Below are positions 828 to 49,709 of a DNA stretch of 64,000 nucleotides, piece by piece (within the stretch, counting starts at the first letter, position 1; each line of letters starts with the position of its first letter). A program made the translations under genes and the position numbers. The notes beneath the pieces are model-generated. The model ran no database searches, was not told where the DNA came from, and saw only the letters and a list, made by a program, of their open reading frames with translations. Origin of the DNA: an uncultured Chloroflexia bacterium (lineage in GTDB: Bacteria; Chloroflexota; Limnocylindria; Limnocylindrales; CSP1-4); the NCBI GenBank assembly GCA_963813335.1, contig CAWEYL010000004.1, forward strand, positions 1 to 64,000. The letters run 5' to 3'.

Positions 828-863
828 TGGCCGAACGGCCCACGCGAACGCGCCCTTCGGCAC
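828..863. promoter_or_regulatory. paired DosR-like boxes upstream of the oxidoreductase operon
   Basis: TGGCCGAACGGCCC (828-841) and GCGCCCTTCGGCAC (850-863); TACGTT at 887, 23 nt downstream. Confidence 0.6.
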
Positions 864-909
864 TCCCGGGCCACCGCCCTCGACCCTACGTTTCGATGGG
901 AGGCTACCG

Positions 910-1182
910 ATGGCGATCGCCGTCCAGGAGATCCGGCAGGAGACGCGCCGCTCGAGGGCCTTTGAGCCCCTGGACGTGGCCGCCCACCGCTGCAAGGGTT
1001 GCGGGCTCTGCGTCTCCGTCTGCCCCAAGGGCGTCCTCGAGCTGGACACGTCGCTCGTGAACGACCTCGGCTACCACCCCGTCCGGTTGACCGACGCGGC
1101 CGCCTGCACGAGCTGCGCGCTGTGTGCCCGGATCTGCCCCGACGCGGTGTTCGCCGTGTATGCGCGACCCAGGAGTGCCTGA
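910..1182 (+). CDS. 2x[4Fe-4S] ferredoxin, delta subunit of 2-oxoacid:ferredoxin oxidoreductase
   Basis: [12 protein letters not shown] and [12 protein letters not shown] motifs; GGAGG RBS. Confidence 0.9.
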
Positions 1183-1183
1183 C

Positions 1184-2410
1184 ATGCCCAGCATGGTCGC
1201 CGAGCAGGGCACCCGACCCATCGATGGCGTCGTGCGCCCGATCCTCATGAAGGGCAACGAGGCGATCGCCGAAGCGGCGATCCAGGCCGGCTGTGACGCG
1301 TACTTCGGCTACCCGATCACCCCCCAGGCCGAGCTCCTCGAGTGGATGGCGCGCCGGATGCCGGAGCTCGGGCGGGTCTTCGTCCAGGCCGAGAGCGAGC
1401 TCGGGGCGATCAACATGGCCCTCGGCGCGGCGGCCACCGGCGCCCGCGTCCTGGTCTCGTCCTCGAGCCCCGGCATCAGCCTGATGGCCGAGGGGATGAG
1501 CTACCTGGCCGGCTCCGAGCTGCCGATGGTCCTCGTCAACGTCATGCGCGGCGGACCGGGGCTGGGCAGCATCGGACCGTCGCAGTCCGACTACTTCCAG
1601 GCGACGAAGGGCCATGGCCACGGCGACTACCGCGTCCCGGTCCTCGCACCGTCGTCGATCGCCGAAGCCGTCGAGTTGACCGCGGACGCCTTCGAGATCG
1701 CGGAGCGCTACCGGACACCGGTGATCATCCTCGCCGACGGGGTCATGGGCCAGGCGATGGAGCCGGTCCTGCCCGTCTATCGGATGCCGGCCCGCGAACC
1801 CGCCGGCTGGGAGCTGTCCGGGGCGGACGGCCGCCCGCCGCGGGTCGTTCGCTCGCTCCATCTCCGAAGCGAGGATCTCGAGGTGCACAACCAGCACCTG
1901 CAGGCGAAGTTCGGCTTGATCGCCGATCACGAGGTCCGCTGGGCCGGCGAGCTCCTGTCGGACGCCGAGGTCGTCGTGGTCGCCTACGGGACGGCGGCGC
2001 GCGTCGCGCGAACGGCGATCGAGCGGGCACGCGAGCAGGGCCTGCGCGTCGGCCTGTTCCGGCCGATCAGCCTCTGGCCGTTCCCGTCGAGCGCGCTGGC
2101 CGACGTCGCCGCCGACGTGCGCGCCATCGTCGTCCTCGAGATGTCGGCCGGGCAGATGGTCGAGGACGTGCGCCTGGCCGTCGAAGGGCGAACCCCCGTC
2201 CTCTTCCACGGCCGGACGGGCGGCATGGTCCCGACGCCGCGGGAGGTCGTGGATGTCATGCGCCGGGCCTGGGCGCTGACCCCGTCGATCGGCTGGTCGT
2301 CCGTCCTGGACGAGGTCGCCGCCGACGAGGAGGCGGACCCGCTCAGCCTGATCGAGCTCGGCGCCTGGACGGCTGCCCGGCATGGCACGACCGATGGGAA
2401 GGCCCGGTGA
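1184..2410 (+). CDS. vorB: 2-oxoacid (2-ketoisovalerate-type):ferredoxin oxidoreductase alpha subunit, VorB-like
   Basis: [45 protein letters not shown] motifs. Confidence 0.88.
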
Positions 2411-2414
2411 CCCC

Positions 2415-3203
2415 GTGGTGATCCAGACCGCCGACCCGAGACGCATCGTCTACCGACGACCCGACCTGCTGGCCGACACGTCCACCCACTACTGCCCTGG
2501 CTGCGGTCACGGCATCGTCCACCGCCTAGTCGCCGAGCTGCTCGACGAGATGCACCTCGGACCCACCACGATCGCGGTCGCCTCGGTCGGCTGCAGCGTC
2601 TTCGCCTACGACTACCTGGCGGTCGACTTCGTCGAGTCTCCGCATGGTCGCGCGCCCGCGGTCGCGACCGGCGTTCGCCGGGTCCGCCCGGACGCATTCG
2701 TGTTCACCTACCAGGGCGACGGCGACCTTGCCGCGATCGGGACGGCCGAGATCGTCCATGCGGCGGCTCGCGGGGAGCGGATCAGCGTGGTCTTCGTCAA
2801 CAACGGCATCTACGGGATGACGGGTGGACAGATGGCGCCGACGACGCTGCTCGGCCAGCGCACGACGTCGAGCCCGGGCGGGCGCGAGGCGTCGACAGCC
2901 GGCTACCCCATCCCGATCACCGAGATGCTCGCGCTGCTCCCCGGCGTGACCTACGCCGCGCGCGGCTCCATCGCCGACCCGTCGTCGATCGGCAAGACCA
3001 AGGCGATGATCCGACGCGCGTTCGAGGCCCAGCTGGGAGGCGGCGGCTTCTCGATCGTGGAGGTCCTGTCGACCTGCCCGGTCGGCTGGGGGATGACGCC
3101 GACCGAGTCGATGACGCACCTCGCCGATGATGTCGTGCAGACCTATCCGCTCGGCGTGCTCGCCGACCGGACGACGGCCCACGGCGGCCCCGTGAGGGAC
3201 TGA
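2415..3203 (+). CDS. 2-oxoacid:ferredoxin oxidoreductase beta subunit (TPP-binding)
   Basis: HYCPGCGH, VGC, HGRA, YQGDGDL, NNGIYGMTGGQMAPTT, STCP; start uncertain. Confidence 0.88.
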   Translation: MVIQTADPRRIVYRRPDLLADTSTHYCPGCGHGIVHRLVAELLDEMHLGPTTIAVASVGCSVFAYDYLAVDFVESPHGRAPAVATGVRRVRPDAFVFTYQGDGDLAAIGTAEIVHAAARGERISVVFVNNGIYGMTGGQMAPTTLLGQRTTSSPGGREASTAGYPIPITEMLALLPGVTYAARGSIADPSSIGKTKAMIRRAFEAQLGGGGFSIVEVLSTCPVGWGMTPTESMTHLADDVVQTYPLGVLADRTTAHGGPVRD

Positions 3204-3204
3204 G

Positions 3205-3789
3205 ATGCAGCACGCGACGGTCATCAGCGGGTTCGGTGGGCAGGGCCTGCTGTTCGCCTGGCGCGTCCTGGCCCAGGCCGCGCTCATCGAGGGTCGGACC
3301 GTGTCGTGGATGCCCTCCTACGGGCCCGAGATGCGCGGGGGAACGGCATCGTGCACGGTCATCATCGCGGACCATCCGATCGGCTCGCCGATCGTCGACA
3401 GCGCCGACAGCGTCATCGCCCTGAACCCGCCGTCGATGGCCAAGTTCGAGCCGCTCCTCGTCGCGGGCGGCCTGCTGATCGCGAACAGCACGCTGATCGA
3501 GGCGGAGCCCCGCCGGACGGATATCGAGGTCGCGGGCATCCCGTGCACCCGCCTGGCGCGCGCGGGCGGAGACGACCGACTGGTCAGCATCGTGGCCCTC
3601 GGCGGGCTCCTCGCTCGCCGGCCGATCGTCGGCCGCGAGTCGCTCCGGCTCGCCCTCGTCGAGGTGCTCGGAACGAAGCGGCCGGAGATGATCGACGCCA
3701 ACCTCGCGGCGCTCCACGGCGGCTACCAGGCAGCGATCGACGCGGCCGTCGCCGACCGGGCCGCGGGACCGGCACGCTCGGGACGCTGA
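3205..3789 (+). CDS. 2-oxoacid:ferredoxin oxidoreductase gamma subunit
   Basis: SGFGGQG and PSYGPEMRGGTA motifs. Confidence 0.9.
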   Translation: MQHATVISGFGGQGLLFAWRVLAQAALIEGRTVSWMPSYGPEMRGGTASCTVIIADHPIGSPIVDSADSVIALNPPSMAKFEPLLVAGGLLIANSTLIEAEPRRTDIEVAGIPCTRLARAGGDDRLVSIVALGGLLARRPIVGRESLRLALVEVLGTKRPEMIDANLAALHGGYQAAIDAAVADRAAGPARSGR

Positions 3790-3817
3790 CTGGCGCACCG
3801 AGCCCTGGACGCAGGGC

Positions 3818-3852
3818 GGCGGAGATCCCGCCCCGAAAACGGGACCTCCGCC
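3818..3852. terminator. hairpin between convergent genes
   Basis: GGCGGAG-A-TCCCG / CGGGA-C-CTCCGCC stem. Confidence 0.55.
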
Positions 3853-3886
3853 TGGTGGTCTTCAGGTGGCTCGACTCGTCGATGGG

Positions 3887-4333
3887 TCAGGTGACCTGGA
3901 CCTTGACGCGCGTCGGCTTGACGTCCTCGGTCTTCGGCAGGGTGAGCCTCAGCAGACCGTCCTTGAATTCCGCCGTGGCTGCCTCGGCCTTGATGGCGGT
4001 CGGCAGCGTGAAGCTCCGGGTGAACTTGCCCTGGCTGAGCTCCTTGTGGACGAAGTCAGCCTCGCTGACCTCCTTCTCCTCCTTGAACGTGCCGCTGATC
4101 GTGACGATGTCGTCGGCGATGGTGACGTCGACCGCCTCCGGCTTGATCCCGGGCAGCGCGACCCTCGCGATCACCGCCTCAGGCGTGCTGTAGAGATCGA
4201 GCGCAGGAACAGCCTGCCGCTCCGCACTGCCGATCCACATCGGCCTGAAGAAGCGCTCGTCGAAGAGCCGATCCATCACGTCCTGGAACGAGACGAGGTC
4301 CGAGAGTGGTGCCGAGCGCCGCATGAGCGTCAT
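3887..4333 (-). CDS. Hsp20/alpha-crystallin small heat shock protein
   Basis: ALPGIKPEAVDV, FTRSFTLP, AEFKDGLLRLTLPK, terminal V-x-V; AAGGAGG RBS. Confidence 0.93.
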   Translation of the reverse strand: MTLMRRSAPLSDLVSFQDVMDRLFDERFFRPMWIGSAERQAVPALDLYSTPEAVIARVALPGIKPEAVDVTIADDIVTISGTFKEEKEVSEADFVHKELSQGKFTRSFTLPTAIKAEAATAEFKDGLLRLTLPKTEDVKPTRVKVQVT

Positions 4334-4498: not shown

Positions 4499-4534
4499 GG
4501 GCCGGACGGCCCGCCGATGGGTGACCTTCGCCCC
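4499..4534. promoter_or_regulatory. paired DosR-like boxes
   Basis: GGGCCGGACGGCCC (4499-4512) and GTGACCTTCGCCCC (4521-4534); CAGACT at 4558. Confidence 0.65.
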
Positions 4535-4599
4535 TCGTTCGGCCCCTGGCCGGCGTCCAGACTCCCCCGATCAACCACCGCTCCACCCGGAGGTGCGAG

Positions 4600-5001
4600 A
4601 TGACTCGGGTCCTCGTCGTCCATCACGACCTTGACCTGGCCGGCCAGGAAGTCGATTCGCTGCGCCGCTACGGCTATGACGTCGTGGAGTGCGGCGGGCC
4701 GACCCGCAATCGCTGCCCGGTCCTCGCCGGACACCCGTGCGACCTCGCGGAGCGGGCGGACGTGCTCGTCTACGACGTCTGGGCGAGCGGCGACGCCGAC
4801 GGGGCCAAGACCCTGATCGAGAACATCCGCGACGTCCATCCGGACACGCCGGTGGTCCTGACAGCACCGGGCGTCGCGCTGAGCTGGGAGGAGACGACGG
4901 GCAGCCATGCCGTGACCGTCCTCCTGGGCCAGCCGACTGGTGCCCGGCTCGACGAGGCGATCAAGGCCGCGCTCGCGCCCAAGGCCGAGTCGGACGCGTG
5001 A
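4600..5001 (+). CDS. stand-alone receiver-like domain protein with a Cys-rich insertion
   Basis: CheY-like pattern (RVLVV.., GYDV, DVLVYD, PDTPVVL) with C-G-G-P-x4-C-P-x6-C insert; GGAGG RBS. Confidence 0.65.
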   Translation: MTRVLVVHHDLDLAGQEVDSLRRYGYDVVECGGPTRNRCPVLAGHPCDLAERADVLVYDVWASGDADGAKTLIENIRDVHPDTPVVLTAPGVALSWEETTGSHAVTVLLGQPTGARLDEAIKAALAPKAESDA

Positions 5002-5028: not shown

Positions 5029-5850
5029 CTAGCCCGCCCTCGGTTCGGCCGGCCAGTACTGCTCGCTGACGATCGCGTCACGGGCGAAACCACGTCGGGC
5101 GAGGATCAGTTCGGTCGCGGCGATGACCCCGGGATTCCCGCAGAGATAGGCGACGCTCTCGGCGGGAGCCAGCCCATGGAGATCGCACAGCTCGTCGAGG
5201 CGGGCGTCGATCCGGCCGGTGAGCCCGGTCCAGCCGGCGTTGTCGGGATGGGTCGGGCGGGAGATCAGCGGCGAGTAGCGGATCCGGGCGGGGCCGCCGG
5301 CCATCCTCTCGAGGCGGTCGCGGTAGGCCAGCTCGCCGACGCGCGCGACGCCGTGGACGACGACCGCGCGCGGTGCGCCGGCGTCGGTGCAGGGAGCAGC
5401 GAGGTCGTCGCCCACCAACGTCTCGAGCATCGAGACCAGCGGCGCGATCCCCGTTCCGGTAGCGACGAACAGGTGGGCCCGCGGGTCGCCAGGCCGCAGC
5501 TTGAAGAGGCCCTTCGCCCGGCCGATGCGCAGCCGGGCCCCGACCGGAAGCGCCCACAGCCGAGGCGTGAACGTGCCGCCTTCCACGAGGCGGACCAGGA
5601 ACTCGAGGTCGCGACCCGACCCTGCCGCGGATGCCGTCGAGTAGGGCCGCTGGAGCAGGCTGCCATCGAGCATCAGGCCGAGCGCGAAGTACTGGCCGGG
5701 CTCGAACGGGACGACGCCGACGTCCGGCCGGACCGTGAACCGGCCGACGGTCTCCGTCAGGTCGATCCGCGCGATGAGCGTCGCGTTCGGCTCCCCAGCC
5801 GGCCCCGGACGAGCGACCGACGCGGGTCGTCCCGGTTGGCCCGTCCACAC
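5029..5850 (-). CDS. ferredoxin-NADP+ reductase family FAD-binding oxidoreductase
   Basis: FEPGQY, RPYS, GTFT, ATGTGIAP, YLCGNP, C-terminal EQYW; start uncertain. Confidence 0.88.
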   Translation of the reverse strand: MWTGQPGRPASVARPGPAGEPNATLIARIDLTETVGRFTVRPDVGVVPFEPGQYFALGLMLDGSLLQRPYSTASAAGSGRDLEFLVRLVEGGTFTPRLWALPVGARLRIGRAKGLFKLRPGDPRAHLFVATGTGIAPLVSMLETLVGDDLAAPCTDAGAPRAVVVHGVARVGELAYRDRLERMAGGPARIRYSPLISRPTHPDNAGWTGLTGRIDARLDELCDLHGLAPAESVAYLCGNPGVIAATELILARRGFARDAIVSEQYWPAEPRAG

Positions 5851-5851
5851 G

Positions 5852-8359: not shown

Positions 8360-8387
8360 CTCATCCGGGCCACATGGCCCACTCATC
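8360..8387 (+). promoter_or_regulatory. three direct repeats with 11-bp period (OmpR-family site)
   Basis: CTCATC (8360), CACATG (8371), CTCATC (8382). Confidence 0.55.
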
Positions 8388-10124: not shown

Positions 10125-10825
10125 AGTTCCGTGGGTTCGACGCGCGCACGCAGGCGACCCGCTGGGGCTTGTTCGCCGTCGCGATCGGCATCGTCGTCGG
10201 CGCGACCGGGCCGACGGCCATCGCGGGGCTCGCGGGCGCGTGGGAGGCGAACCGGTCGAGCCTGCCGTGGATCTTCGAGCGGACGTTCGCGTTCCTGGCC
10301 TATGGCGCCGTCGCGGGCTCGGTGATCTACGGCCTGCTCCTCTCGACGAAGGTCCTCGATGTGGTCGCCCATCGCCCGATCACCTTCGCCCTGCACCAGG
10401 ACCTGGCCTCGTTCGGCGTGGGCCTCGCCGCGATCCACGGGATGCTCCTGGCGCTCGACAAGAGCGTCCCGTTCAGCCTCGCCCAGATCGCCGTTCCCGG
10501 GCTGGCCCCGTACGCACCGATGTGGGTCGCGGTCGGCCAGGTCGCGTTCTACCTGATGGCCGCCGTCCTCGCGAGCTTCTACCTTCGGCGGCGGATCGGG
10601 CAGCGCGCCTGGCGCCTCTTCCACTACCTGACGTTCTTCGCGTTCATCGGGGCGACGGCGCATGGGCTCGGGGCCGGCACCGACAGCGCCTCTCCCTGGG
10701 CCTGGTGGCTCTACGTCGGGTCGTCCGTGGTCGTCGTGTTCCTGTTCGTCTACCGAGTCGCGAGCGCCGTCGCCGGGCGGTCAGCGCGCCCGGCCCGGAC
10801 GACGGGGCGGATCGGGACCGCGTAA
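10121..10825 (+). CDS. ferric reductase-like/MsrQ-like transmembrane heme b protein
   Basis: multiple TM segments with four His in TM-proximal positions; RRRIG.RAWRLFHYL motif. Confidence 0.82.
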   Translation: MKFRGFDARTQATRWGLFAVAIGIVVGATGPTAIAGLAGAWEANRSSLPWIFERTFAFLAYGAVAGSVIYGLLLSTKVLDVVAHRPITFALHQDLASFGVGLAAIHGMLLALDKSVPFSLAQIAVPGLAPYAPMWVAVGQVAFYLMAAVLASFYLRRRIGQRAWRLFHYLTFFAFIGATAHGLGAGTDSASPWAWWLYVGSSVVVVFLFVYRVASAVAGRSARPARTTGRIGTA

Positions 10826-10891
10826 GGCCCGATGGCCCCCTTTGAAGGGGCAGTCCGGCCGGGGTGCGCGCCGCGAGCGCGGCCATAGACT
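10825..10891 (+). promoter_or_regulatory. paired DosR-like boxes and leaderless -10
   Basis: AGGCCCGATGGCCC (10825), GGGCAGTCCGGCCG (10848), TAGACT (10886) 6 nt before ATG. Confidence 0.55.
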
Positions 10892-23949: not shown

Positions 23950-24066
23950 GGCGTCTCCAGCAGACTCTGGGTGTCGATGGGCGGCACGATGCCGCACCGC
24001 ATGTACCAATTAAAAGCCTGCGCGGCAAGTCCGCCTCGCCGCGCGTGCCGACGGTCACGACCCGGC

Positions 24067-24080
24067 GGGTCGAAGGTCCC
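24067..24080. promoter_or_regulatory. single DosR-like box
   Basis: GGGTCGAAGGTCCC. Confidence 0.45.
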
Positions 24081-24662: not shown

Positions 24663-24698
24663 GGCCCCACCATACGTGGTGCCGCGGCGACGCGGGCA

Positions 24699-24795
24699 GG
24701 GTCGGACGGCCCTCGGCGCGCAGGTGCTTCGGCCCGAATGCCGTCGGGGCCGCGAAGCACGGCCGTCCGTCACGTCGGGGCGGGACCTTCGGCCC
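24699..24795. promoter_or_regulatory. four DosR-like boxes in a divergent promoter
   Basis: GGGTCGGACGGCCC (24699), AGGTGCTTCGGCCC (24722), CGGCCGTCCGTCAC (24760), GGGACCTTCGGCCC (24782). Confidence 0.7.
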
Positions 24796-24830
24796 TCGTC
24801 GGACGCCCATGCCCCAGCAACGATGGGCCC

Positions 24831-32490: not shown

Positions 32491-32626
32491 CGAGGGCCTC
32501 CTGATCGGCATCCCGACCGGCGCCTGGCCAGTCGTCTGGACATCAGCGTGCGCCAGCTGTGGGCCGCTGACGACGGCCACACCTCCCGTTCGCGGCGGGT
32601 CCGATGGCCCCCTGCGGGCGGACCGT

Positions 32627-33337: not shown

Positions 33338-33390
33338 CGGGATCACCTGCCTTCGGTTCACAGACTGCCCGCCGGCGCAGCGCGCTGACA

Positions 33391-33404
33391 GGTCCGAACG
33401 TCAC
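33391..33404. promoter_or_regulatory. DosR-like box
   Basis: GTGACGTTCGGACC (minus strand), 23 nt from CAGTCT; another box GGGTCCGATGGCCC at 32597-32610. Confidence 0.55.
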
Positions 33405-33439
33405 GTCCTCGCGGGCCATGCGGGATGCGTGACAGGACC

Positions 33440-38052: not shown

Positions 38053-38122
38053 CGGGCAGCTCCTTGGGGATACGGACGGAAGGATCGGCTTCCATCCTCC
38101 CGTCGCCCATGGCCGGTCGCTA

Positions 38123-38211
38123 GGGCCTTTCGGACGCGTCTGGAGGGCCTTCCGGCACTCGGCACGGCGTCGCCTCGACGCTTCCATGTGGGGGGACGGG
38201 ATCGAGGTCCC
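38123..38211. promoter_or_regulatory. three DosR-like boxes in the nifJ/flavodoxin divergent promoter
   Basis: GGGCCTTTCGGACG (38123), GGGCCTTCCGGCAC (38145), GGGATCGAGGTCCC (38198). Confidence 0.65.
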
Positions 38212-42357: not shown

Positions 42358-42807
42358 TCAGGCGGGGACGACGATCACCTCGCACGGCGCGCGCCGCGCC
42401 ACCTCGGAGGAGACGCTCCCGAGCAGCAGCCGACGGAGGTCCGTCCGGCGGCGCGAGCCGAGCACGATGACGTCGGCGCTCTCGGACGCCGACGCCTCGA
42501 GGATGGATTCGGCCGGGTCGCCCTCCCAGATCAGGTAGGTCGCCGCGACGCCGGAAGCACGGGCCCGGCCGACGATGTCGCGGACCCCGACCTCGAGACG
42601 GTCTCGCTCCTGGTCGACGCGACGCGACCGGCCGCCCGGCAGGTGCAGGTTCGACTGCTCGACGACGCTGAAGACCAGCAGCTCGGCGCGCTCGGTCGCT
42701 GCCATGCGGATGGCCTCGTCGATGGCGCCCTTCGAGGCGCTTGACAGATCGATCGCCAGCAGGACGCGTCGGCCAGGTTCGCTCGGGAGCGGTTCCATGC
42801 CGGGCAT
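42358..42807 (-). CDS. universal stress protein
   Basis: VLLAID, EGDPAESI, LGS, LLGSVS; start may be 42798. Confidence 0.88.
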   Translation of the reverse strand: MPGMEPLPSEPGRRVLLAIDLSSASKGAIDEAIRMAATERAELLVFSVVEQSNLHLPGGRSRRVDQERDRLEVGVRDIVGRARASGVAATYLIWEGDPAESILEASASESADVIVLGSRRRTDLRRLLLGSVSSEVARRAPCEVIVVPA

Positions 42808-42834
42808 GGTGCGGCCGGCCGGCTGTCAGGCCAT

Positions 42835-42898
42835 GGTCCATTCGGGCCGAGTTCGCGGGCCGAGTGGCCCCAGCTTGGTCACAGCCACCTGCTACGCT
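42835..42898. promoter_or_regulatory. paired DosR-like boxes and leaderless -10 (possible autoregulation)
   Basis: GGTCCATTCGGGCC (42835), GGGCCGAGTGGCCC (42857), TACGCT (42893) 6 nt before GTG. Confidence 0.6.
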
Positions 42899-42904: not shown

Positions 42905-44080
42905 GTGACGCCGACCGACCAGTCACCGCCGGACCTCGAGGTCTTCAGTGCCATCGATACCGCGACCCGGGCGATCGCCGGGCTGGGCTCGGTCGACGAG
43001 GTCCTGCAGGTGATCGTCGACCAGGTGCGTCCGCTCGTCGGGGCGCGCTACGCGGCGCTGGGCATCGTCGACGACCACGGCGTCATCGAGCGGTTCATCA
43101 CCTCGGGCATGAGCGCCGCCACGCGGGCGTCGATCGGTCCCCTGCCCCGCGGCCACGGCTTCCTCGGGCTGATCATCCGCGAGAACCGCTCGTTCCGGAT
43201 TTCCGACATCGCCGTGGATCCGCGGCGGCACGGCTTCCCGCTGCACCACCCGCCGATGCACAGCTTCCTCGGCGTGCCGGTCAGCGTGAAAGGCCGGTCG
43301 GTCGGCAACCTGTACTTGACCGACAAGGCGGGCGCGACCGAGTTCTCGGCAGACGACCAGGAGCTCGTGGAGACGTTCGCGCGCCATGCGGCGATCGCCA
43401 TCGAGAACGCCCGACTGCACGAGCAGGTCCGTCGGCTGGCCATCGTCGACGAGCGCGAGCGGATCAGCAACGACCTCCACGACGGGATCATCCAGAGCCT
43501 CTACGGCGTCGGCCTGTCGCTCGAGGACGTGCCGGACATGCTCGAGGACGACCCGGACGAGGTGGTCCGCCGGGTGGAGCGGGCGATCGACAACATCCAC
43601 TTCGCGATCCGCGACATCCGAAACTTCATCTTCGGCCTGCGTCCGGAGCTCCTCAGCGGCACGACCCTGATGGTCGGCATCGCCGCGATCCTCGAGGAGT
43701 TCCGCCACAACTCGATCATCGACGTCGAGCTGCGCGCCGGCGAGGGCGACCGCGAGCCGTCGCCGGACGACACCGCCCACCTGCTCGGCATCGTCAACGA
43801 GGCGCTCAGCAACATCGCCCGCCATTCCGGCGCGTCGCGGGCGCTCGTCGACGTCGAGATCGAGAAGGACGGTCGCGTCCGCATCGCGGTGACCGATAAT
43901 GGCCATGGCTTCGACGCGTCGTCGGCGGTGAGCCTGGGCCACCAGGGTCTCGCCAACATGCGCTCGCGGGCCGCCGGGATCGGCGCCACGATCACGTTCG
44001 AGAGCGGTCGGAACGGCACGACCGTGCAGATCACCCTGCCGGGGCCGGACTCGGCCGACGCTGGAGCTGCCAAGGCATGA
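42905..44080 (+). CDS. soluble GAF-domain sensor histidine kinase (DosS/DevS-like, HisKA_3)
   Basis: ARYAALG, P.G.G.LG, GFP.HHPPM.SFLGVP, GNLYLT, ERERISNDLHD, EALSN. Confidence 0.9.
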   Translation: MTPTDQSPPDLEVFSAIDTATRAIAGLGSVDEVLQVIVDQVRPLVGARYAALGIVDDHGVIERFITSGMSAATRASIGPLPRGHGFLGLIIRENRSFRISDIAVDPRRHGFPLHHPPMHSFLGVPVSVKGRSVGNLYLTDKAGATEFSADDQELVETFARHAAIAIENARLHEQVRRLAIVDERERISNDLHDGIIQSLYGVGLSLEDVPDMLEDDPDEVVRRVERAIDNIHFAIRDIRNFIFGLRPELLSGTTLMVGIAAILEEFRHNSIIDVELRAGEGDREPSPDDTAHLLGIVNEALSNIARHSGASRALVDVEIEKDGRVRIAVTDNGHGFDASSAVSLGHQGLANMRSRAAGIGATITFESGRNGTTVQITLPGPDSADAGAAKA

Positions 44081-44754
44081 CTGAGACATCGACCAGCCCC
44101 GGGCGACCGCTGACCATCCTGGTGGTCGACGACCACGAGGTCGTCCGCCAGGGTCTCTCGGCGATGCTCGACCGCCGACCAGGGTTCCAGGTGGTCGCGG
44201 AGGCCGGCACCGTCGCCGAGGCGATCGAGGCCGCCAAGCGCTTCCAGCCCGACGTGGTCGTGATGGATGTCCGGCTGCCGGACGGCTCCGGCGTGGAGGC
44301 CTGCCGGGAGATCCGCGCCGAGCTGCCGGACACCCGGGTCGTGATGCTGACGAGCTACCCGGACGAGGAGGCCGTCATCGCCGCGATCATCGCCGGGGCC
44401 AGCGGCTACCTGCTCAAGCAGGTCCGGGCCCGCGACCTCGTCGCGGCCCTCGAGGCCGTCGGTCGGGGCGAATCCCTGCTCGACCCGGCGGTGACCGGCA
44501 AGGTCCTCGAGCGGATGCGCCGGATCGCCTCCTCCGACCAGCCCGACGAGCTCGCCGCCCTGACCCAGCAGGAGCGCAAGATCCTGGCGCTCGTCGCCGA
44601 GGGCAAGACCAACAAGGAGATCGCGGCCGACGTCTTCCTGTCCGACAAGACGGTCAAGAACTACGTGAGCTCGATCCTCGCCAAGCTCAACCTCGAGCGG
44701 CGGGCGCAGGCGGCGGCATACGTCGCCAAGCTCAAGACGCACGGCAGCGACTGA
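44077..44754 (+). CDS. NarL/LuxR family response regulator (DosR/DevR-like)
   Basis: VDDHEVVR.G, DVRLPDGSG, LT.QE..IL..G.TNKEIA..LS.KTVKNYVS.ILAKL. Confidence 0.92.
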   Translation: MTETSTSPGRPLTILVVDDHEVVRQGLSAMLDRRPGFQVVAEAGTVAEAIEAAKRFQPDVVVMDVRLPDGSGVEACREIRAELPDTRVVMLTSYPDEEAVIAAIIAGASGYLLKQVRARDLVAALEAVGRGESLLDPAVTGKVLERMRRIASSDQPDELAALTQQERKILALVAEGKTNKEIAADVFLSDKTVKNYVSSILAKLNLERRAQAAAYVAKLKTHGSD

Positions 44755-44823: not shown

Positions 44824-44828
44824 GAGGG

Positions 44829-45767: not shown

Positions 45768-45889
45768 GATGGTTCCTCCACGGGCATCTCGGGTGCGTGC
45801 ATGGCCACGGACCGAGCGATCAGCGAGGTCACGACCACGACGATGATGGTGGCCACGACGGATAGGGCGATCGGGACGACGAGGCGCAT
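45764..45889 (-). CDS. 41-aa single-TM small protein (not in the ORF track)
   Basis: MRLVVPIALSVVATIIVVVVTSLIARSVAMHAPEMPVEEPS*; GGAGG RBS; ATGA overlap with the downstream gene. Confidence 0.6.
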   Translation of the reverse strand: MRLVVPIALSVVATIIVVVVTSLIARSVAMHAPEMPVEEPS

Positions 45890-45963
45890 GGCGGACCCTC
45901 CATAGGCGACACCGGATCAGACGATGTCATGGTCACGGTCCTCCGTCGGGCGCGAGGATCCCA

Positions 45964-46000
45964 GCGCCGTTCGTCGCGAACGCCGGAGTCCGTTCGGCCC
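45964..46000. promoter_or_regulatory. paired DosR-like boxes
   Basis: GCGCCGTTCGTCGC (45964) and AGTCCGTTCGGCCC (45987). Confidence 0.5.
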
Positions 46001-46021
46001 GAAGCGCGCGCGTGGCGCGGG

Positions 46022-47293
46022 TCAGATCAGGTGGTACCGCCGGGCGGCGGCAACGAGCTCGTCGCGAAGGTCGGGATGGGCGATCGCGATGAGGGCGATG
46101 GCCCGCTCGCGCAGGCTCTTGCCGAAGAGCTCCGCGACGCCCCACTCGGTGACGATCGTCCTGACATGGGCGCGTGTCGTCACGACCCCGGCGCCCTCCT
46201 TGAGCGTGGTGGCGATCCGCGAGACGGTGCCGCCGGCGGCGGTCGAGGGAAGCGCGATGATGGCCCGGCCCTCCGGCGCGAGGGCCGCGCCGCGGATGAA
46301 GTCCATCTGCCCGCCGACGCCTGAATACAGGTGGTGCCCGATCGAATCGGCCACGACCTGGCCGGTCAGGTCCACCTCGATCGCCGAGTTGATCGCCACC
46401 ATCCGCCGGAAGGAGCGGATGACGTGCGTGTCGTTCGTGAAGTCGACCGAGCGCATCTCGACCATCGGGTTGTCGTCCACGAAGTCGTACAGCCGCCGCG
46501 AGCCCATCATGAACGCGGTCACGATCTTGCCGCGGTTGCGATCCTTGCGGGCCCCGGTGACCACCCCGGCCTCGACCAGGTCGACGACCGCGTCGGTGAA
46601 CATCTCGGTGTGGATCCCGAGGTCGCGCTTGCCGTGCAGCGCCATCGCCGTCGCGGCCGGGATCGCGCCGATCCCGAGTTGCAGCGTCGCGCCATCGGGG
46701 ACCAGTTCGGCGACATGCTCGCCGATCAGGCGCTCCACCTCCCCGATCGTGCCCGTGCCGTGCTCGTAGGGCGGCTGGTCGACCTCCACGGCGAGGTCGA
46801 TGTCGCTCACGTGGACGAAGCTCTCGCCCAGGGTCCGCGGCATCGAGCGGTTGAACTGCACGATGACCGTCGTCGCAGCGCGGATCGCGGCGTGCATCGC
46901 CTCCACACTGGTGCCCAGCGAGCAGAAGCCATGGGCGTCGGGTGGGGTGGCGTTGACGAGGACGACGTCAAGGGGGATCGAGCCCGAATCGAACAGGTGC
47001 GGCACGTCGGACAGGAAGACCGGCACGTAGTCCGCCCGCCCCTCGTTCACGGCCGCACGGGCGTTCGGCCCGATGAACAGCGCGCGGTGGCGGAAATGGC
47101 CGGCCATCTCGGGCGCGAGATGCGGCCCGGGGCCTTCGACATGGAGGTGGACCATCCCGACGTCGTGCAGCTCGGGTGCACGCGCCACGAGGGCGTCGAG
47201 CAGCACGGACGGGGTCGCCGCCGCGCAATGCACGTAGACCTGGTCGCCGGAACGGACCGAGGCGACCGCCTCCGCCGCCGATACGATGCGCAT
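46022..47293 (-). CDS. acetyl-CoA hydrolase/transferase (4-hydroxybutyrate CoA-transferase-like)
   Basis: DGATLQLGIG, HTEM, SGVGGQMDF, VTEWG, IAHP. Confidence 0.92.
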   Translation of the reverse strand: MRIVSAAEAVASVRSGDQVYVHCAAATPSVLLDALVARAPELHDVGMVHLHVEGPGPHLAPEMAGHFRHRALFIGPNARAAVNEGRADYVPVFLSDVPHLFDSGSIPLDVVLVNATPPDAHGFCSLGTSVEAMHAAIRAATTVIVQFNRSMPRTLGESFVHVSDIDLAVEVDQPPYEHGTGTIGEVERLIGEHVAELVPDGATLQLGIGAIPAATAMALHGKRDLGIHTEMFTDAVVDLVEAGVVTGARKDRNRGKIVTAFMMGSRRLYDFVDDNPMVEMRSVDFTNDTHVIRSFRRMVAINSAIEVDLTGQVVADSIGHHLYSGVGGQMDFIRGAALAPEGRAIIALPSTAAGGTVSRIATTLKEGAGVVTTRAHVRTIVTEWGVAELFGKSLRERAIALIAIAHPDLRDELVAAARRYHLI

Positions 47294-47302
47294 CCGGGAA
47301 GC

Positions 47303-48257
47303 CTACGCGGGCGTGACCGCCTCCATCGGCTCGTTGGACATGCGCTCACCTCCCGGGAATGTCGGGGTCGGTCGGACGATCAGCACGGACATCGGCGCGT
47401 GGTGCAGCACGGTCCGGGCCGTGCTGCCGAGCAGCAGGCGCCGGAGCAGGCCGTGGCCGCGCGTCCCGACCACGATGAGGTCGGCGGCCCACGATTTCGG
47501 CCTCGGCGATGATCTCGACCGCGGCCGGGCCTTCGCGGACCACCGACCGAGCCTCCATCCCCTCGGCCCGCAGGCGGCGGACCGCCTCGGCGGCGACGGC
47601 CTGGCCGTGCGCGCCGGCCTCGCCCACGACCGACGTATAGACGTCGCTCGCCATCATGCCTTCGCCCGGCGACATCCCGAGCCACCACGCCGCGGGGACG
47701 TCGGTCACGCTCAGGACCCGCGCTCCGGCGGCATCGAAGAGACCCGAGGCGGCGACGAAGGACGCCCCGAGAGCGGCGTCGGGCGAGCCGTCGGTGGCGA
47801 TGAGGACGCGCCATGCCGTCGGCCGGCGGGCGACGAGGACCGGGCAGTGCGCGTGGTCCACGACCTCGGCCGAGACGGACCCGAGGAAGACCCGCTCGAA
47901 GGTCCCGTGCCCGCGGGCGCCCACGATGACCAGCTCGGAAGCGACGCGCTCGGCCTCCTCGACGATCACCGAGGCCGCGCGGCCGTCGAGCACGCGCCCG
48001 ACGACGCCCAGGCCCGGCCGTCGCATCCGCTCGACGGCGGCGTCGACCAGCTGCCGGTACTCGTCGAGCAGGCGCTCGCGGACGTTCGGATCCTGCGTGT
48101 AGACGCCCGCTGCGAACGGGCCGCCGAACACCTCGACGTCGGTCGGGACGACACTGATGATCTCGAGGCGGGAATCGGGCGGCCACGTCAGGCTGGCCGC
48201 GGTCTCGAGCGCCACCGCGGATTCGTGGGAGCCATCGATCGCGAGCAGGGCCTTCAT
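47303..48257 (-). pseudogene. tandem-domain universal stress protein with a +1 frameshift near 47495
   Basis: removing one T from TTT (47495-47497) restores ..[35 protein letters not shown]..; AGGAGG RBS. Confidence 0.8.
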
Positions 48258-48308
48258 GGTCGGGCCTCCTTCTGCGTCGATGCTGGGCCGCTGCCGAGGG
48301 ATCCGCAC

Positions 48309-48345
48309 GTGCCAGCGGACCCGATCCGTCGGTGACCGACGGCCC
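48309..48345. promoter_or_regulatory. paired DosR-like boxes
   Basis: GTGCCAGCGGACCC (48309) and GTGACCGACGGCCC (48332); CAGCAT on the minus strand, 23 nt away. Confidence 0.6.
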
Positions 48346-48372
48346 GTCCGGGCGCGCGATCGGCGGTCCCGG

Positions 48373-49059
48373 TCAGGCCTGGGCGCTGAGGGCCAGCAGC
48401 CGCGCCCCGGCAGCCCAGTCATCGGGCGCGTCGACGCGGAGCCGGCCCGCCTCGTGGCGGATCAGCCGTCCGAGCTCGGTGTCGGTGCTCGACGCGCGGC
48501 CCGCCCGACGGCGGTGCTCCGCGTCGCGGATGAACGCGGCGTAGCGGGTGGTCGGGGTCGCGTCGGCGACGGCCGCCTCGAACCCGGGCCGGTAGTCGAC
48601 GGCGACCATCAGCCGCCCGAAGAACGCGCCGACCAGGTCGGCGCCGGCATCCCAGCCCTGCGAATGGCCGCCGCGCCGCAGCAGCGGCGCCGGTGAGGTG
48701 AAGGCCACGACGATGGCATCGTCCACCATGGCGGCGTCGAGCCGCCCGCCGAAGGTCAGGTACTCGTTGGTGACCCGGAGCCGGTCGACCAGCCGGATCA
48801 TCCCCCAGGAGAACTCCTCGGAGAGGGGCATCGACGTCGCCCGCGACAGTTCGCGCCGCTCGCCGCGGCCGTCGCGCGACACCCAGTACTCGATGCTCTC
48901 GGGGTCGTAGTGCCGGAGCGTCGGCGCCGCGCGCAACGCCACCAGCAGGTATGCCGGCCCGGGCCGGTCCGGGAGGTCCGGGTTCGCGAGGAACCCCCAT
49001 TCGGCGATCCGCGTCGCCGGATCCAGGGGATCGCGGGTGATCGTGCCGTCGGACTGCAT
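48373..49059 (-). CDS. hypothetical protein
   Basis: GC3-biased ORF of globular composition downstream of the hemerythrin gene; no family recognised. Confidence 0.7.
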   Translation of the reverse strand: MQSDGTITRDPLDPATRIAEWGFLANPDLPDRPGPAYLLVALRAAPTLRHYDPESIEYWVSRDGRGERRELSRATSMPLSEEFSWGMIRLVDRLRVTNEYLTFGGRLDAAMVDDAIVVAFTSPAPLLRRGGHSQGWDAGADLVGAFFGRLMVAVDYRPGFEAAVADATPTTRYAAFIRDAEHRRRAGRASSTDTELGRLIRHEAGRLRVDAPDDWAAGARLLALSAQA

Positions 49060-49108
49060 CTGGTGGCCGCCTCTCTCGCCCATGCCGGGGTCGTCGGTCC
49101 GTTCCGCC

Positions 49109-49561
49109 TCAGTCCGGTCCGAGGAGCGGCAGCAGGAACTGCTCCTCGCGCTCGAGGTGGGCGCGCAGCAGCGCCTCGATCGCGAACAGGTCGCAGCGGG
49201 TATCGGCGGTGGCATCGCGCTCGGGACCGTGCGTCAGGCGGATGCGGTCGGACGCCAGGGCCTCGGCCCGGTGCGCGATCTGGCGGTGGTCGAACCGGAC
49301 GAGCCGGGCCAGCCACGGCGTGTGGGCGCGGTGGTCGACCTGCGGCAGGAGCCAGGTCTCCTCCCAGAGCATGTGGGGCTTCAGGACGTGCTCGATCCAG
49401 TGGCTGATCTCCAGGACCCGGCTCGACATCCGGTCGGCGGGCAGGGAGGCCAGCTCGCAGGCGGTCGTATGGATGTGCTCGATCCCGGCGGCGAGGTCGT
49501 GGTGCTCATGCTGGACGAAGGAGCGCATGACCTCCTCACCGGTCGTGCTCGTGCGCGTCAT
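49109..49561 (-). CDS. hemerythrin domain protein
   Basis: EH, H...EE, DH, H...EE pattern; GGAG RBS. Confidence 0.8.
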   Translation of the reverse strand: MTRTSTTGEEVMRSFVQHEHHDLAAGIEHIHTTACELASLPADRMSSRVLEISHWIEHVLKPHMLWEETWLLPQVDHRAHTPWLARLVRFDHRQIAHRAEALASDRIRLTHGPERDATADTRCDLFAIEALLRAHLEREEQFLLPLLGPD

Positions 49562-49623
49562 GTCTCCGACCTCCTGCGAGTGGTGTCGCCCGTACCGTCG
49601 ACCCGAGTGGGCGGCCCGCGCCA

Positions 49624-49709
49624 GTGCCGCCCGGCACGTCCTCCGAGGTCTTGCCGGCCCCTCCTCCAATACGGGCCGGGCGGCGTGGCTGGATCGTGAC
49701 TTCCGGCCC
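49624..49709. promoter_or_regulatory. four DosR-like boxes in a divergent promoter
   Basis: GTGCCGCCCGGCAC (49624), GGTCTTGCCGGCCC (49647), GGGCCGGGCGGCGT (49673), GTGACTTCCGGCCC (49696); CAGGAT at 49733. Confidence 0.65.

What the first reader, a model, noticed from the sequence alone, without database searches (positions are those of the whole stretch)
828..49709. Physically clustered DosR-like hypoxia regulon marked by about 20 palindromic boxes with fixed geometry
Seen: a 14-bp palindrome, G(G/T)G(A/C)C-N4-G(G/T)C(C/A)C, in intergenic DNA at 828/850, 4499/4521, 10825/10848, 24067, 24699/24722/24760/24782, 32597, 33391, 38123/38145/38198, 42835/42857, 45964/45987, 48309/48332 and 49624/49647/49673/49696. 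Paired boxes are 22-23 bp apart. The proximal box lies 22-24 nt from an NANNNT hexamer in at least ten promoters (e.g. 887, 4558, 10886, 42893, 49733), and divergent promoters carry two pairs. Known: the mycobacterial DosR/DevR box has a similar GGGAC..G.CCC core, and DosR controls hspX, USPs and a CBS protein. Inference: the local GAF kinase and NarL-type regulator (42905-44754) autoregulate and activate about 50 kb of anaerobic-survival genes, including several of unknown function. The window seems to come from a non-mycobacterial lineage.
Basis: partly seen in the sequence, partly recalled or inferred. Interest (0 to 1): 0.85.

Follow-up and report, generated by a model that had tools for sequence, protein, structure and literature searches.

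The report
DosR-type hypoxia regulon in Chloroflexota
An uncultured soil and wetland Chloroflexota bacterium carries the oxygen-sensing DosS/DosR-type switch known from mycobacteria and Streptomyces, and its paired binding boxes sit at a fixed distance in front of about 15 neighbouring operons for fermentation, hydrogen production and stress proteins: a well-supported new example of a known circuit, in a new phylum.

Summary
Exact matches run at 2.2/kb in the window's intergenic DNA, against 0.04/kb in its coding DNA and 0.13/kb in other intergenic DNA of the genome. Box-to-box distances peak sharply at 22-23 bp, in the window only. Of 17 pairs, 14 are followed by an NANNNT hexamer 22-24 nt away, which gives 15 promoters. 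At five of these a start codon lies 6-7 nt after the hexamer, so the hexamer is a -10 element and the proximal box is centred near -42.5.

The local response regulator's best solved match is M. tuberculosis DevR/DosR (E 1e-60), with an identical recognition helix. The kinase carries a DosT/DevS-like heme GAF domain.

The organism is a Limnocylindria (Chloroflexota) MAG, not an actinobacterium. Boxes and geometry recur in 80 related loci. Clustering around the regulator varies between relatives.

The box, the tandem layout and even the clustering are already known from M. tuberculosis and Streptomyces OsdR, so this is a new member of a known kind. This scan had already noted the same kind on other DNA.

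The parts
42905..44080 (+). Sensor kinase, 391 aa: one DosT/DevS-like heme GAF domain, then HisKA_3 and HATPase_c. Predicted leaderless.
   Evidence: Pfam. PDB matches: DosT 2vzw E 8e-38; DevS GAF-A E about 1e-34. The GTG at 42905 lies 6 nt after the hexamer 42893-42898.
44077..44754 (+). DevR/DosR-type response regulator (REC plus GerE/LuxR HTH).
   Evidence: Pfam. Best PDB match is DevR 3c3w, E 1.1e-60, with the KTVKNYVS helix identical. That helix motif is unique in the genome.
828..892 (+). Promoter: boxes 828 and 850, hexamer TACGTT 887-892. Drives ferredoxin plus a 3-subunit 2-oxoacid:ferredoxin oxidoreductase (910-3789).
   Evidence: Pfam.
4499..4563 (+). Promoter: boxes 4499 and 4521, hexamer CAGACT 4558-4563. 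Drives an unknown 133-aa protein (4600-5001). hsp20 (3887-4333, minus strand) lies 165 nt to the other side, without canonical geometry.
10825..10891 (+). Promoter: boxes 10825 and 10848, hexamer TAGACT 10886-10891. Drives a P-type ATPase with a C-terminal hemerythrin domain. The ATG at 10898 sits 6 nt after the hexamer, so the gene is probably leaderless.
24015..24080 (-). Promoter: boxes 24067 and 24045, hexamer CAGGCT. Drives a LiaF-like unknown protein (22999-23949), PspC (22398-22997) and a LiaF-like protein (21439-22401).
24669..24735 (-). Promoter: boxes 24722 and 24699, hexamer TATGGT. Drives a GNAT acetyltransferase (24165-24662), leaderless.
24760..24824 (+). Promoter: boxes 24760 and 24782, hexamer AACGAT. 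Drives a cNMP-binding protein, a group-3b-like NiFe hydrogenase (fused beta/gamma, small and large subunits), HycI, HypC, EamA and DUF6390 (24831-32010). Leaderless.
   Evidence: Orthologous promoters are boxed in 3 of 3 relatives that have the gene.
32545..32610 (-). Promoter: boxes 32597 and 32574, hexamer CACGCT. Drives a USP (32089-32490).
33362..33426 (-). Promoter: boxes 33413 and 33391, hexamer CAGTCT. Drives a CBS-pair protein (32627-33346).
38094..38158 (-). Promoter: boxes 38145 and 38123, hexamer GAGGAT. Drives a 1199-aa pyruvate:ferredoxin oxidoreductase (34453-38052) and a DHODH-like protein (33440-34456).
   Evidence: Orthologous promoters are boxed in 2 of 3 relatives.
42806..42898 (.). 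One shared box pair (42835 and 42857) serves two divergent promoters. Hexamer CACCAT 42806-42811 faces the USP (42358-42807; the ATG at 42798 lies 7 nt after the hexamer). Phosphoketolase and acetate kinase may lie in that operon. Hexamer TACGCT 42893-42898 faces the kinase and regulator.
45935..46000 (-). Promoter: boxes 45987 and 45964, hexamer GACCGT. Drives a possible small uncalled ORF and an unknown 312-aa protein (44829-45767).
48280..48345 (-). Promoter: boxes 48332 and 48309, hexamer CAGCAT. Drives a 303-aa USP-domain protein (47346-48257) and an acetyl-CoA hydrolase/transferase (46022-47293).
49594..49660 (-). Promoter: boxes 49647 and 49624, hexamer GACGGT. Drives a hemerythrin (49109-49561) and an unknown 228-aa protein (48373-49059).
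49673..49738 (+). Promoter: boxes 49673 and 49696, hexamer CAGGAT. Drives a small ORF and a DsrE/TusA/DsrE/TusA/SQR-like flavoprotein cluster (49808-52686).
38198..38211 (.). Lone box, 24 nt before a flavodoxin-like gene (38236-38745). It has no partner and no hexamer. Its status is open.
8367..8380 (.). Lone exact-match box between a divergent OmpR-type regulator gene and an unknown gene. It has no partner and no hexamer. Its status is open.

Best explanation
The window holds the core of a DevR/DosR-type two-component regulon in a Limnocylindria (Chloroflexota) bacterium.

Proposed mechanism:
1. A single-GAF heme kinase (42905-44080) senses loss of O2, or NO, CO or redox change. This step is inferred.
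2. The kinase phosphorylates the DevR-like regulator (44077-44754). This step is inferred.
3. Regulator dimers bind cooperatively to two 14-bp palindromes, cGGG(C/A)C-N4-G(G/T)CCCg, set 22-23 bp (about two helical turns) apart.
4. The proximal box is centred about -42.5 from the start site, in place of a -35 element, so the regulator acts as a class-II-type activator. The distal box lies at about -65.

Fifteen such promoters are shown by sequence: five give leaderless mRNAs and one box pair serves two divergent promoters. They would switch on about 40 genes: the kinase and regulator themselves; two 2-oxoacid:ferredoxin oxidoreductases and a ferredoxin; a group-3b-like NiFe hydrogenase; possibly phosphoketolase/acetate kinase and an acetyl-CoA hydrolase/transferase, which lie downstream of boxed USP genes without a pair of their own; USPs; a CBS protein; hemerythrins; a P-type ATPase; a DsrE/TusA/SQR-like cluster; and several unknown proteins. 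Together these look like a hypoxic switch to H2-evolving fermentation plus stress protection.
For: Shown by the sequence:
- Boxes are enriched in intergenic DNA.
- Box spacing peaks at 22-23 bp in the window's intergenic DNA only.
- 15 of 34 pair flanks carry an NANNNT hexamer at offset 22-24, against a background chance of 0.063 per flank.
- Start codons of long ORFs lie 6 nt after the hexamer at 24831, 42905, 24662 and 10898, and 7 nt after it at 42798.
- The composite model (pair plus hexamer) gives 18 raw hits in 4.06 kb of window intergenic DNA, 1 in 45.9 kb of window coding DNA, 38 in 382 kb of other intergenic DNA and 67 in 2.11 Mb of other coding DNA.
- Other intergenic regions of the window score at most 10.4 for their best pair, against 13.0-22.5 for the 15 promoters.

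Regulator and kinase: DevR is the best solved match of the regulator (E 1.1e-60), with an identical KTVKNYVS helix. The helix motif is unique in the genome. The kinase GAF domain matches the DosT and DevS heme domains.

Conservation:
- A pair lies upstream of the kinase orthologue in 15 of 18 same-genus genomes.
- In 80 Limnocylindria loci (616 kb), the geometry 'spacing 22-23 plus hexamer 22-24' gives 212 hits. Other spacings give 39-65, and other hexamer offsets 55-59.
- Hydrogenase orthologue promoters are boxed in 3 of 3 relatives and PFOR orthologue promoters in 2 of 3, even where they lie far from the regulator.

Agreement with known systems:
- The Streptomyces OsdR consensus is AGGGCCGATCGGCCCT (PMC5069765, passages).
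- M. tuberculosis Dev boxes are tandem and in helical phase at -42.5 and -63.5, and G5 and C7 of each half-site are essential (PMC3177182, abstract and passages). The best-conserved columns here are the third G and the C of each half-site.
Against: - There are no binding, expression or start-site data. No RNA run holds this DNA.
- The kinase has one GAF domain, not the two of DevS/DosT.
- Box spacing is 22-23 bp, not 21.
- hsp20, the hallmark DosR target, has no canonical pair on its own strand.
- In several relatives the kinase promoter's proximal box lies further from the -10 element (27-32 nt in L002 and L003), so the geometry is not universal.
- My hard-EM motif score was not above random intergenic sets.
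- Most candidate sites outside the window front genes with no hypoxia theme, so the composite model has false positives.
- The related genomes are kin, so counts across them overstate independence.
Confidence: 0.85

Rival explanations
1. The boxes are real operators of the local regulator, but it represses rather than activates. It would sit on the -35 region and release transcription when the signal arrives.
For: A site centred at -42.5 also overlaps where RNA polymerase binds. Sequence alone cannot give the direction of control.
Against: None of the 15 promoters shows a -35 element other than the box. The -10 hexamers are weak (NANNNT), which is typical of activator-dependent promoters. DevR with the same layout activates (PMC3177182), and OsdR transactivates uspA (PMC5069765).
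Confidence: 0.06
2. Another DNA-binding protein recognises the boxes, for example a different LuxR/NarL-family regulator or a CRP/FNR-like protein, and the neighbouring DevR-like pair is a bystander.
For: The genome encodes several NarL-type paralogues at 40-43% identity. A cNMP-binding protein heads the hydrogenase operon.
Against: Only the local regulator has the DevR recognition helix. The box equals the OsdR/DevR consensus. The cNMP-binding protein has no HTH domain in Pfam. A pair lies upstream of the kinase orthologue in 15 of 18 same-genus genomes.
Confidence: 0.05
3. The boxes are a by-product of composition or structure: G+C-rich palindromes such as terminator stems or repeat elements in a 72% G+C genome.
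For: GGGCC-N4-GGCCC can form a short hairpin. With up to 2 mismatches the pattern is common everywhere, at 9-11 hits per kb. The hard-EM score was not above null sets.
Against: Exact hits are 17-fold commoner than in other intergenic DNA and about 50-fold commoner than in coding DNA. The 22-23 bp spacing and the hexamer offset are sharp. Every one of the 15 hexamers faces a co-directional gene 0-63 nt from the predicted start site, apart from 45964 (161 nt). No pair or box was found in the convergent gaps 3790-3886, 32011-32088 and 44755-44828. The geometry is conserved in other genomes.
Confidence: 0.02

Closest known systems
Mycobacterium tuberculosis DevR(DosR)-DevS/DosT dormancy regulon and its Dev boxes (PMC3177182: abstract and passages read)
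   Same: - The regulator is NarL-type with the same recognition helix.
- The kinase has a heme-type GAF domain with HisKA_3.
- The box is palindromic with a GGG(A/C)C half-site, and the third G and the C are the best-conserved positions.
- Every promoter has at least two tandem boxes in helical phase, with the proximal box at about -42.5.
- A single pair can drive divergent genes, as at tgs1-Rv3131.
- There is a pair upstream of the regulator's own operon.
- The targets include USPs, a CBS protein, a ferredoxin and a P-type ATPase. That these families are DosR targets in mycobacteria is my recollection.
   Different: - The phylum is Chloroflexota, not Actinomycetota.
- The kinase has one GAF domain, not two.
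- Box centres are 22-23 bp apart, not 21.
- C is more frequent than A at half-site position 4.
- The regulon is largely clustered, and is rich in PFOR/OFOR, a hydrogenase, phosphoketolase and sulfur-carrier genes.
- I found no nitroreductase, DGAT or nitrate genes in the window.
Streptomyces coelicolor OsdK/OsdR (SCO0203/SCO0204) and the SCO0167-SCO0219 cluster (PMC5069765: passages read)
   Same: The consensus is nearly identical: AGGGCCGATCGGCCCT there, cGGGCCgnncGGCCCg here. The core regulon is physically clustered around the regulator, with many USP genes and up to 27 predicted elements in the region. OsdR binding was shown by EMSA there.
   Different: OsdR also reaches developmental genes and the nitrate reductase Nar2. 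The passages I read do not describe paired boxes at a fixed distance from the -10 element. The organism is an actinomycete.
Mycobacterium smegmatis DosR control of the group 3b NiFe hydrogenase Hyh for fermentative H2 production in hypoxia (bioRxiv 10.1101/2023.09.11.557286: passages read)
   Same: A DosS/T-DosR system switches on a group 3b hydrogenase under hypoxia. Here a boxed promoter heads a hydrogenase operon whose best family matches are sulfhydrogenase subunits of the group 3b kind, below the curated cut-offs.
   Different: Here the same regulon would also bring the likely electron source (PFOR/OFOR and ferredoxin) and substrate-level ATP steps (phosphoketolase, acetate kinase). The paper's text does not mention phosphoketolase or pyruvate:ferredoxin oxidoreductase (0 occurrences each).

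Membership tests
DevR/DosR-type response regulators (NarL/LuxR family) | REC domain plus a GerE/LuxR-type HTH domain | tested here: met
   Pfam Response_reg E 8.9e-30 and GerE E 8.6e-19.
DevR/DosR-type response regulators (NarL/LuxR family) | Closest characterised relative is DevR, and the DNA-contacting helix is conserved (Lys179, Lys182 and Asn183 of DevR; residue numbers recalled, not from a call) | tested here: met
   Best PDB match is 3c3w DevR, E 1.1e-60; the next is VraR, E 2.6e-46. KTVKNYVS is identical in the printed alignment. It is the only such helix in the genome.
DevR/DosR-type response regulators (NarL/LuxR family) | Phospho-acceptor Asp and the REC switch residues conserved | tested here: met
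   In the printed alignment, MDVRLPDG aligns with LDVRLPDG, LTSY is identical, and the Lys in GY..K is kept. The identity of these positions as D54, T82 and K104 is recalled.
DevS/DosT-type heme sensor kinases | Heme-binding GAF-A domain with its proximal His and distal Tyr | tested here: met
   The GAF domain at residues 28-176 matches DosT 2vzw (E 8e-38) and DevS GAF-A (E 5e-35 and weaker). HHPPM and NLYLT are aligned. That these hold the heme His and the Tyr is recalled. Heme binding itself cannot be tested here.
DevS/DosT-type heme sensor kinases | Tandem GAF-A and GAF-B domains before the kinase core | tested here: not met
   One GAF domain (residues 29-167) is followed directly by HisKA_3 at 183-249; the protein is 391 aa. 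Orthologues across the class align over residues 14-385 only.
DevS/DosT-type heme sensor kinases | HisKA_3 dimerisation domain plus HATPase_c | tested here: met
   Pfam HisKA_3 E 9.2e-13 and HATPase_c E 2e-10.
Dev-box promoters (DevR regulon architecture) | Palindromic box with a GGGAC-like half-site, its third G and its C being critical | tested here: met
   The symmetrised matrix of 28 boxes has G in 49 of 56 and C in 52 of 56 at those columns, which have the highest information. Position 4 is C in 40 and A in 10 of 56.
Dev-box promoters (DevR regulon architecture) | At least two tandem boxes in helical phase, with the proximal one near -42.5 | tested here: met
   Spacing is 22-23 bp. The hexamer lies at offset 22-24, and five start codons lie 6-7 nt after it, which puts the box centre at -41.5 to -43.5. 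In M. tuberculosis the spacing is 21 bp.
Dev-box promoters (DevR regulon architecture) | The regulator binds the boxes and induces the genes under hypoxia, NO or CO | not testable with these tools
   No RNA run holds this DNA. The organism is uncultured.

The most novel reading that the evidence does not exclude
The single-GAF DosS/DosR circuit may be an old, class-wide trait of soil and wetland Limnocylindria. A kinase orthologue was found in 16 of 16 and 15 of 15 genomes of two families sampled, and in 0 of 14 sampled genomes of the small-genome sister family. In these abundant, uncultured, supposedly aerobic Chloroflexota it would drive a complete hypoxic fermentation module from one operator code. 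That module runs from pyruvate or 2-oxoacid through ferredoxin to a group-3b hydrogenase and H2, with phosphoketolase and acetate kinase supplying ATP. New regulon members not reported for actinobacteria would include DsrE/TusA/SQR-like sulfur carriers, hemerythrins and a hemerythrin-fused P-type ATPase. If so, DosR-type dormancy control predates or crosses the split between Actinomycetota and Chloroflexota, and shapes H2 and carbon flux in soils that swing between oxic and anoxic.
Probability: 0.45. Interest if true: 0.55.

Novelty: new member of a known kind. Interest (0 to 1): 0.4.

Why it matters
The window gives a clean regulon map for an uncultured but widespread soil and wetland lineage, read from sequence alone. 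The map has 15 promoters with predicted start sites and about 40 target genes, several of unknown function.

It shows that the DevR/DosR operator code and its tandem, class-II-like promoter layout work the same way outside the Actinomycetota. It also predicts that these Chloroflexota survive oxygen loss by H2-evolving fermentation.

In practice the box-plus-hexamer model can be used to annotate hypoxia regulons in Limnocylindria MAGs and to pick targets in metatranscriptomes.

It does not reveal a new mechanism. The box, the tandem arrangement, the clustering (Streptomyces) and hydrogenase control (M. smegmatis) are all in print. Two full-text searches for DosR with Chloroflexi or Chloroflexota listed 3 and 1 papers. 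None has either term in its title or abstract, and I did not open them.

Tried and rejected
- Soft EM motif search. It collapsed onto codon-periodic, low-information patterns, because some of my 'intergenic' stretches are really coding. Discarded.
- Hard-EM palindromic search. At width 14 it found an unrelated ATCG...CGAT pattern.
- Score of the width-16 motif against 40 random sets of intergenic regions. It was not higher (170.8 against 172 +/- 8.7). I judged the test uninformative because of the order-0 background, and do not count it as support.
- Exact 4-mer dyad analysis. The top dyads are fragments of the box, but only one passes a Bonferroni level.
- Expression evidence. No RNA holder was listed for 42000-50000.
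- ESM Atlas look-ups for the unknown proteins. All failed because the tool was unreachable. The unknown regulon members therefore remain uncharacterised beyond weak Pfam hints: flavodoxin-like 38236-38745 and LiaF-like 22999-23949.
- Candidate promoters outside the window. I annotated 24 downstream genes. A flavodoxin, a DHODB-type Fe-S protein and a P-type ATPase are plausible members. Most others (sulfatase, epimerase, GT87, ABC ATPase and so on) have no hypoxia theme, so I do not claim them.
- A canonical promoter for hsp20, for the ferredoxin/FNR-like pair 5029-6142, or for the flavodoxin-like gene. None was found.
- Origin of the system. I built no phylogeny against actinobacterial DevR, so horizontal transfer versus vertical descent is untested.

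Full report
**What the window is.** The window is G000:C4:1-64000, from a 2.54-Mb, 7-contig, 72% G+C metagenome-assembled genome. Its completeness is 81% and its contamination 0.13%. The 80 closest loci found with the local response regulator (75-94% identity) are nearly all MAGs titled Candidatus Limnocylindrales, Limnocylindria, Chloroflexota or Chloroflexia. The organism is therefore a Limnocylindria-class Chloroflexota, not an actinobacterium. Public runs that hold this DNA are labelled soil and wetland metagenomes; five of them hold at least half of the sampled words.

**Check of the observation: boxes and enrichment.** The exact pattern occurs 13 times in the window, against 4.9 +/- 2.5 in shuffles; 1 of 100 shuffles reaches 13. 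I called genes with a self-trained codon model and compared compartments:
- intergenic DNA at 1-50 kb: 9 exact hits in 4,057 bp (2.22/kb);
- coding DNA at 1-50 kb: 2 in 45,943 bp (0.04/kb);
- other intergenic DNA of the genome: 50 in 381.7 kb (0.13/kb);
- other coding DNA: 98 in 2.11 Mb (0.05/kb).

**Check of the observation: spacing.** This is the cleanest test, because it does not depend on how the motif was derived. Among hits with up to two mismatches in the window's intergenic DNA, start-to-start distances of 22 and 23 bp occur 9 and 7 times. Every other distance from 8 to 45 bp occurs 0-4 times. No such peak exists in the window's coding DNA or in the rest of the genome.

**De novo motif search.** Two results went against the observation or were neutral. 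The likelihood score of that motif was not above 40 random sets of intergenic regions (170.8 against 172 +/- 8.7); those sets were dominated by codon-periodic words under my simple background. Exact 4-mer dyads were only marginally enriched.

**Promoter geometry.** I defined pairs without any hexamer condition: at most 4 mismatches in total, 22-23 bp apart, both boxes intergenic. There are 17 such pairs at 1-50 kb.
- Fourteen pairs have an NANNNT hexamer 22-24 nt beyond the box on one side, and one of these has it on both sides. That is 15 of 34 sides, where 0.063 per side is expected.
- The offset histogram reads 22:1, 23:10, 24:4, and 0-3 at every other offset from 8 to 44.
- Each hexamer faces a co-directional gene.
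- At five promoters the start codon of a long ORF lies just after the hexamer. It lies 6 nt after it at 24831, 42905, 24662 and 10898, and 7 nt after it at 42798.

This is what leaderless transcripts from a -10 element look like. It fixes the proximal box centre at about -41.5 to -43.5 and the distal one near -65.

The 15 promoters score 13.0-22.5 for their box pair. The best pair in any other intergenic region of the window scores at most 10.4 and lacks the hexamer.

This corrects some details of the finding. The boxes at 24067, 32597 and 33391 have partners at 24045, 32574 and 33413. The box at 38198 is alone. The divergent kinase/USP region uses one shared pair, while the GNAT/hydrogenase and hemerythrin/DsrE regions have two pairs each. 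The stretch from 5 to 24 kb holds one boxed promoter.

**Is the regulon clustered?** A composite model (pair plus hexamer) gives these raw hits:
- window intergenic DNA: 18 in 4.06 kb;
- window coding DNA: 1 in 45.9 kb;
- other intergenic DNA: 38 in 382 kb;
- other coding DNA: 67 in 2.11 Mb.

At the stricter level (at most 3 mismatches) the counts are 13, 0, 11 and 9. So about 10 further candidate promoters lie elsewhere in the assembly, where about 1.6 would be expected from the coding-DNA rate. I annotated 24 of the downstream genes. A flavodoxin, a DHODB-type Fe-S protein and a P-type ATPase are plausible members; most of the others have no hypoxia theme. The regulon is thus mainly, but not wholly, in the window.

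**The regulator and the kinase.** The protein at 44077-44754 is a REC plus GerE regulator.
- Its best solved match is full-length M. tuberculosis DevR (3c3w, E 1.1e-60). The next best is VraR (E 2.6e-46).
- I count about 103 identical of 208 aligned positions.
- The recognition-helix stretch KTVKNYVS is identical.
- No other protein in the six-frame translation of the genome has that helix motif. The nearest paralogue is 43% identical.

The kinase at 42905-44080 has one GAF domain, then HisKA_3 and HATPase_c.
- The GAF domain matches DosT (2vzw, E 8e-38) and the DevS GAF-A heme domain over its whole length.
- HHPPM and NLYLT are aligned. That these stretches hold the heme-ligating His and the distal Tyr is my recollection.
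- Unlike DevS and DosT, it has no second GAF domain.

**Targets.** The boxed operons encode:
- a ferredoxin plus a three-subunit 2-oxoacid:ferredoxin oxidoreductase;
- a 1199-aa PFOR with a DHODH-like protein;
- a NiFe hydrogenase whose best family matches are sulfhydrogenase subunits (below curated cut-offs), with its maturation genes;
- four USP-domain proteins, a CBS-pair protein, a hemerythrin and a GNAT;
- a PspC/LiaF-like set;
- a hemerythrin-fused P-type ATPase;
- a DsrE/TusA/SQR-like cluster;
- unknown proteins at 4600-5001, 44829-45767 and 48373-49059.

Phosphoketolase with acetate kinase, and an acetyl-CoA hydrolase/transferase, lie downstream of boxed USP genes. The gaps before them are 79 and 52 nt and hold no pair of their own. 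hsp20 lies 165 nt from the pair at 4499/4521 but has no hexamer on its own side.

**Conservation.**
- Kinase orthologues (52-79% identity) occur in 18 of 18 same-genus genomes and in 0 of 12 of the small-genome sister family.
- Fifteen of the 18 have a box pair upstream, followed by a conserved TGnTAnnnT.
- In a sample of 300 Chloroflexota genomes at least 80% complete, a match at E <= 1e-60 occurs in 16 of 16 genomes of the window's own family and in 15 of 15 of a second family of the class. It occurs in 0 of 2 of the sister family and in 17 of the remaining 267, the last at 35-48% identity.
- In the 80 named Limnocylindria loci (616 kb), the exact geometry gives 212 hits. Other spacings give 39-65, and other hexamer offsets give 55-59.
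- Hydrogenase orthologues were found in 3 of 5 relatives searched, and all 3 have the pair plus hexamer upstream. PFOR orthologues were found in 3 of 5, and 2 of them are boxed.
- In G017 these genes lie about 360-395 kb from the kinase.
- Composite hits within 60 kb (52 kb in G010, at a contig end) around the kinase number 18 in G007, 12 in G016, 4 in G010, 4 in G005, 3 in G017 and 3 in G003.

So the operator code and the targets are conserved, but the physical clustering is not. These genomes are kin, so the counts are not independent.

**Mechanism.** The steps shown by sequence are these: the box; its pairing two helical turns apart; its fixed position in place of a -35 element upstream of a weak -10; the DevR recognition helix; and the heme-type GAF domain. 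The inferred steps are sensing of O2, NO, CO or redox state by the kinase, phosphotransfer, cooperative binding of two regulator dimers, and class-II-type activation.

**Comparison with what is known.**
- In M. tuberculosis every DevR promoter has at least two tandem Dev boxes in helical phase. At tgs1-Rv3131 they sit at -42.5 and -63.5, and one pair drives divergent genes. G5 and C7 of each half-site are essential (PMC3177182, abstract and passages). In my matrix of 28 boxes the third G (49 of 56) and the C (52 of 56) are the best-conserved columns.
- In Streptomyces coelicolor the OsdR consensus is AGGGCCGATCGGCCCT. The core regulon is clustered at SCO0167-SCO0219 with up to 27 predicted elements, and binding was shown by EMSA (PMC5069765, passages).
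- In M. smegmatis DosR activates the group 3b hydrogenase Hyh for fermentative H2 production (bioRxiv 10.1101/2023.09.11.557286, passages).

Every element of the finding therefore has a published precedent. What differs here is the phylum, the single-GAF kinase, the 22-23 bp spacing, and the target set: PFOR/OFOR, phosphoketolase, sulfur carriers and hemerythrins, with no nitroreductase, DGAT or nitrate genes seen in the window.

**Novelty.** Full-text searches for DosR with Chloroflexi (3 papers) and with Chloroflexota (1 paper) listed no paper with either term in its title or abstract. I saw only the listings and did not open the papers. A search for Limnocylindria with hydrogenase gave 3 genome surveys, also seen as listings only. 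Earlier notes of this scan describe the same kind of island in another Limnocylindria genome, in a Dehalococcoidia genome and in several actinobacteria. Those are unchecked AI notes. I did not test them on their own DNA and I do not count them as evidence. I file the finding as a new member of a known kind.

**Verdict.** My confidence in the DosR-type activator reading is 0.85. Interest is 0.4: this is a solid, useful regulon reconstruction and a phylum-level extension, but not a new mechanism.

Noticed in passing
window 10898-13321: A P-type ATPase carries a C-terminal hemerythrin (HHE) domain at residues about 640-769. An O2- or iron-sensing domain fused to an ion pump is unusual. The ORF probably starts at the ATG at 10898 (leaderless), not at 10949 as my gene caller had it.
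   Followed up: partly
window 24831-32010: The hydrogenase operon opens with a 158-aa protein that has only a cNMP-binding domain and no HTH. It contains a fused beta/gamma (Fer4_22 plus FAD/NAD) subunit of 662 aa, and ends with EamA and DUF6390 genes.
   Followed up: partly
window 45768-45960: This stretch shows strong three-base periodicity on the minus strand, between the promoter at 45964 and the gene 44829-45767. It probably holds an uncalled small hydrophobic ORF.
   Followed up: no
window 59101-61779: A heavy-metal (HMA) P-type ATPase carries a C-terminal cupredoxin/plastocyanin-like domain. It lies outside the boxed region.
   Followed up: no
window 6297-8296 and 14756-16431: Two OmpR-type two-component systems lie in the almost box-free gap between the boxed segments. 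ApbE, DoxD-Rieske and NQR2/RnfD-like genes lie there too. A lone exact box sits at 8367.
   Followed up: partly
G000 C1:371828-376791: Two adjacent candidate pair-plus-hexamer promoters lie outside the window. One fronts a DHODB-type Fe-S protein and the other a cation P-type ATPase. They may be dispersed regulon members.
   Followed up: partly
relatives G019-G030: The sister family in the same order has genomes of 1.0-1.4 Mb. None of the 12 searched (87-93% complete) has a match to the kinase, which would fit loss of the circuit in a streamlined lineage.
   Followed up: partly
L002-L019: The kinase promoters of relatives share an extended -10-like TG(C/G)TAnnnT. The distance from the proximal box to it varies (22 to about 32 nt), and some have a third box, for example L004 and L017.
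   Followed up: partly
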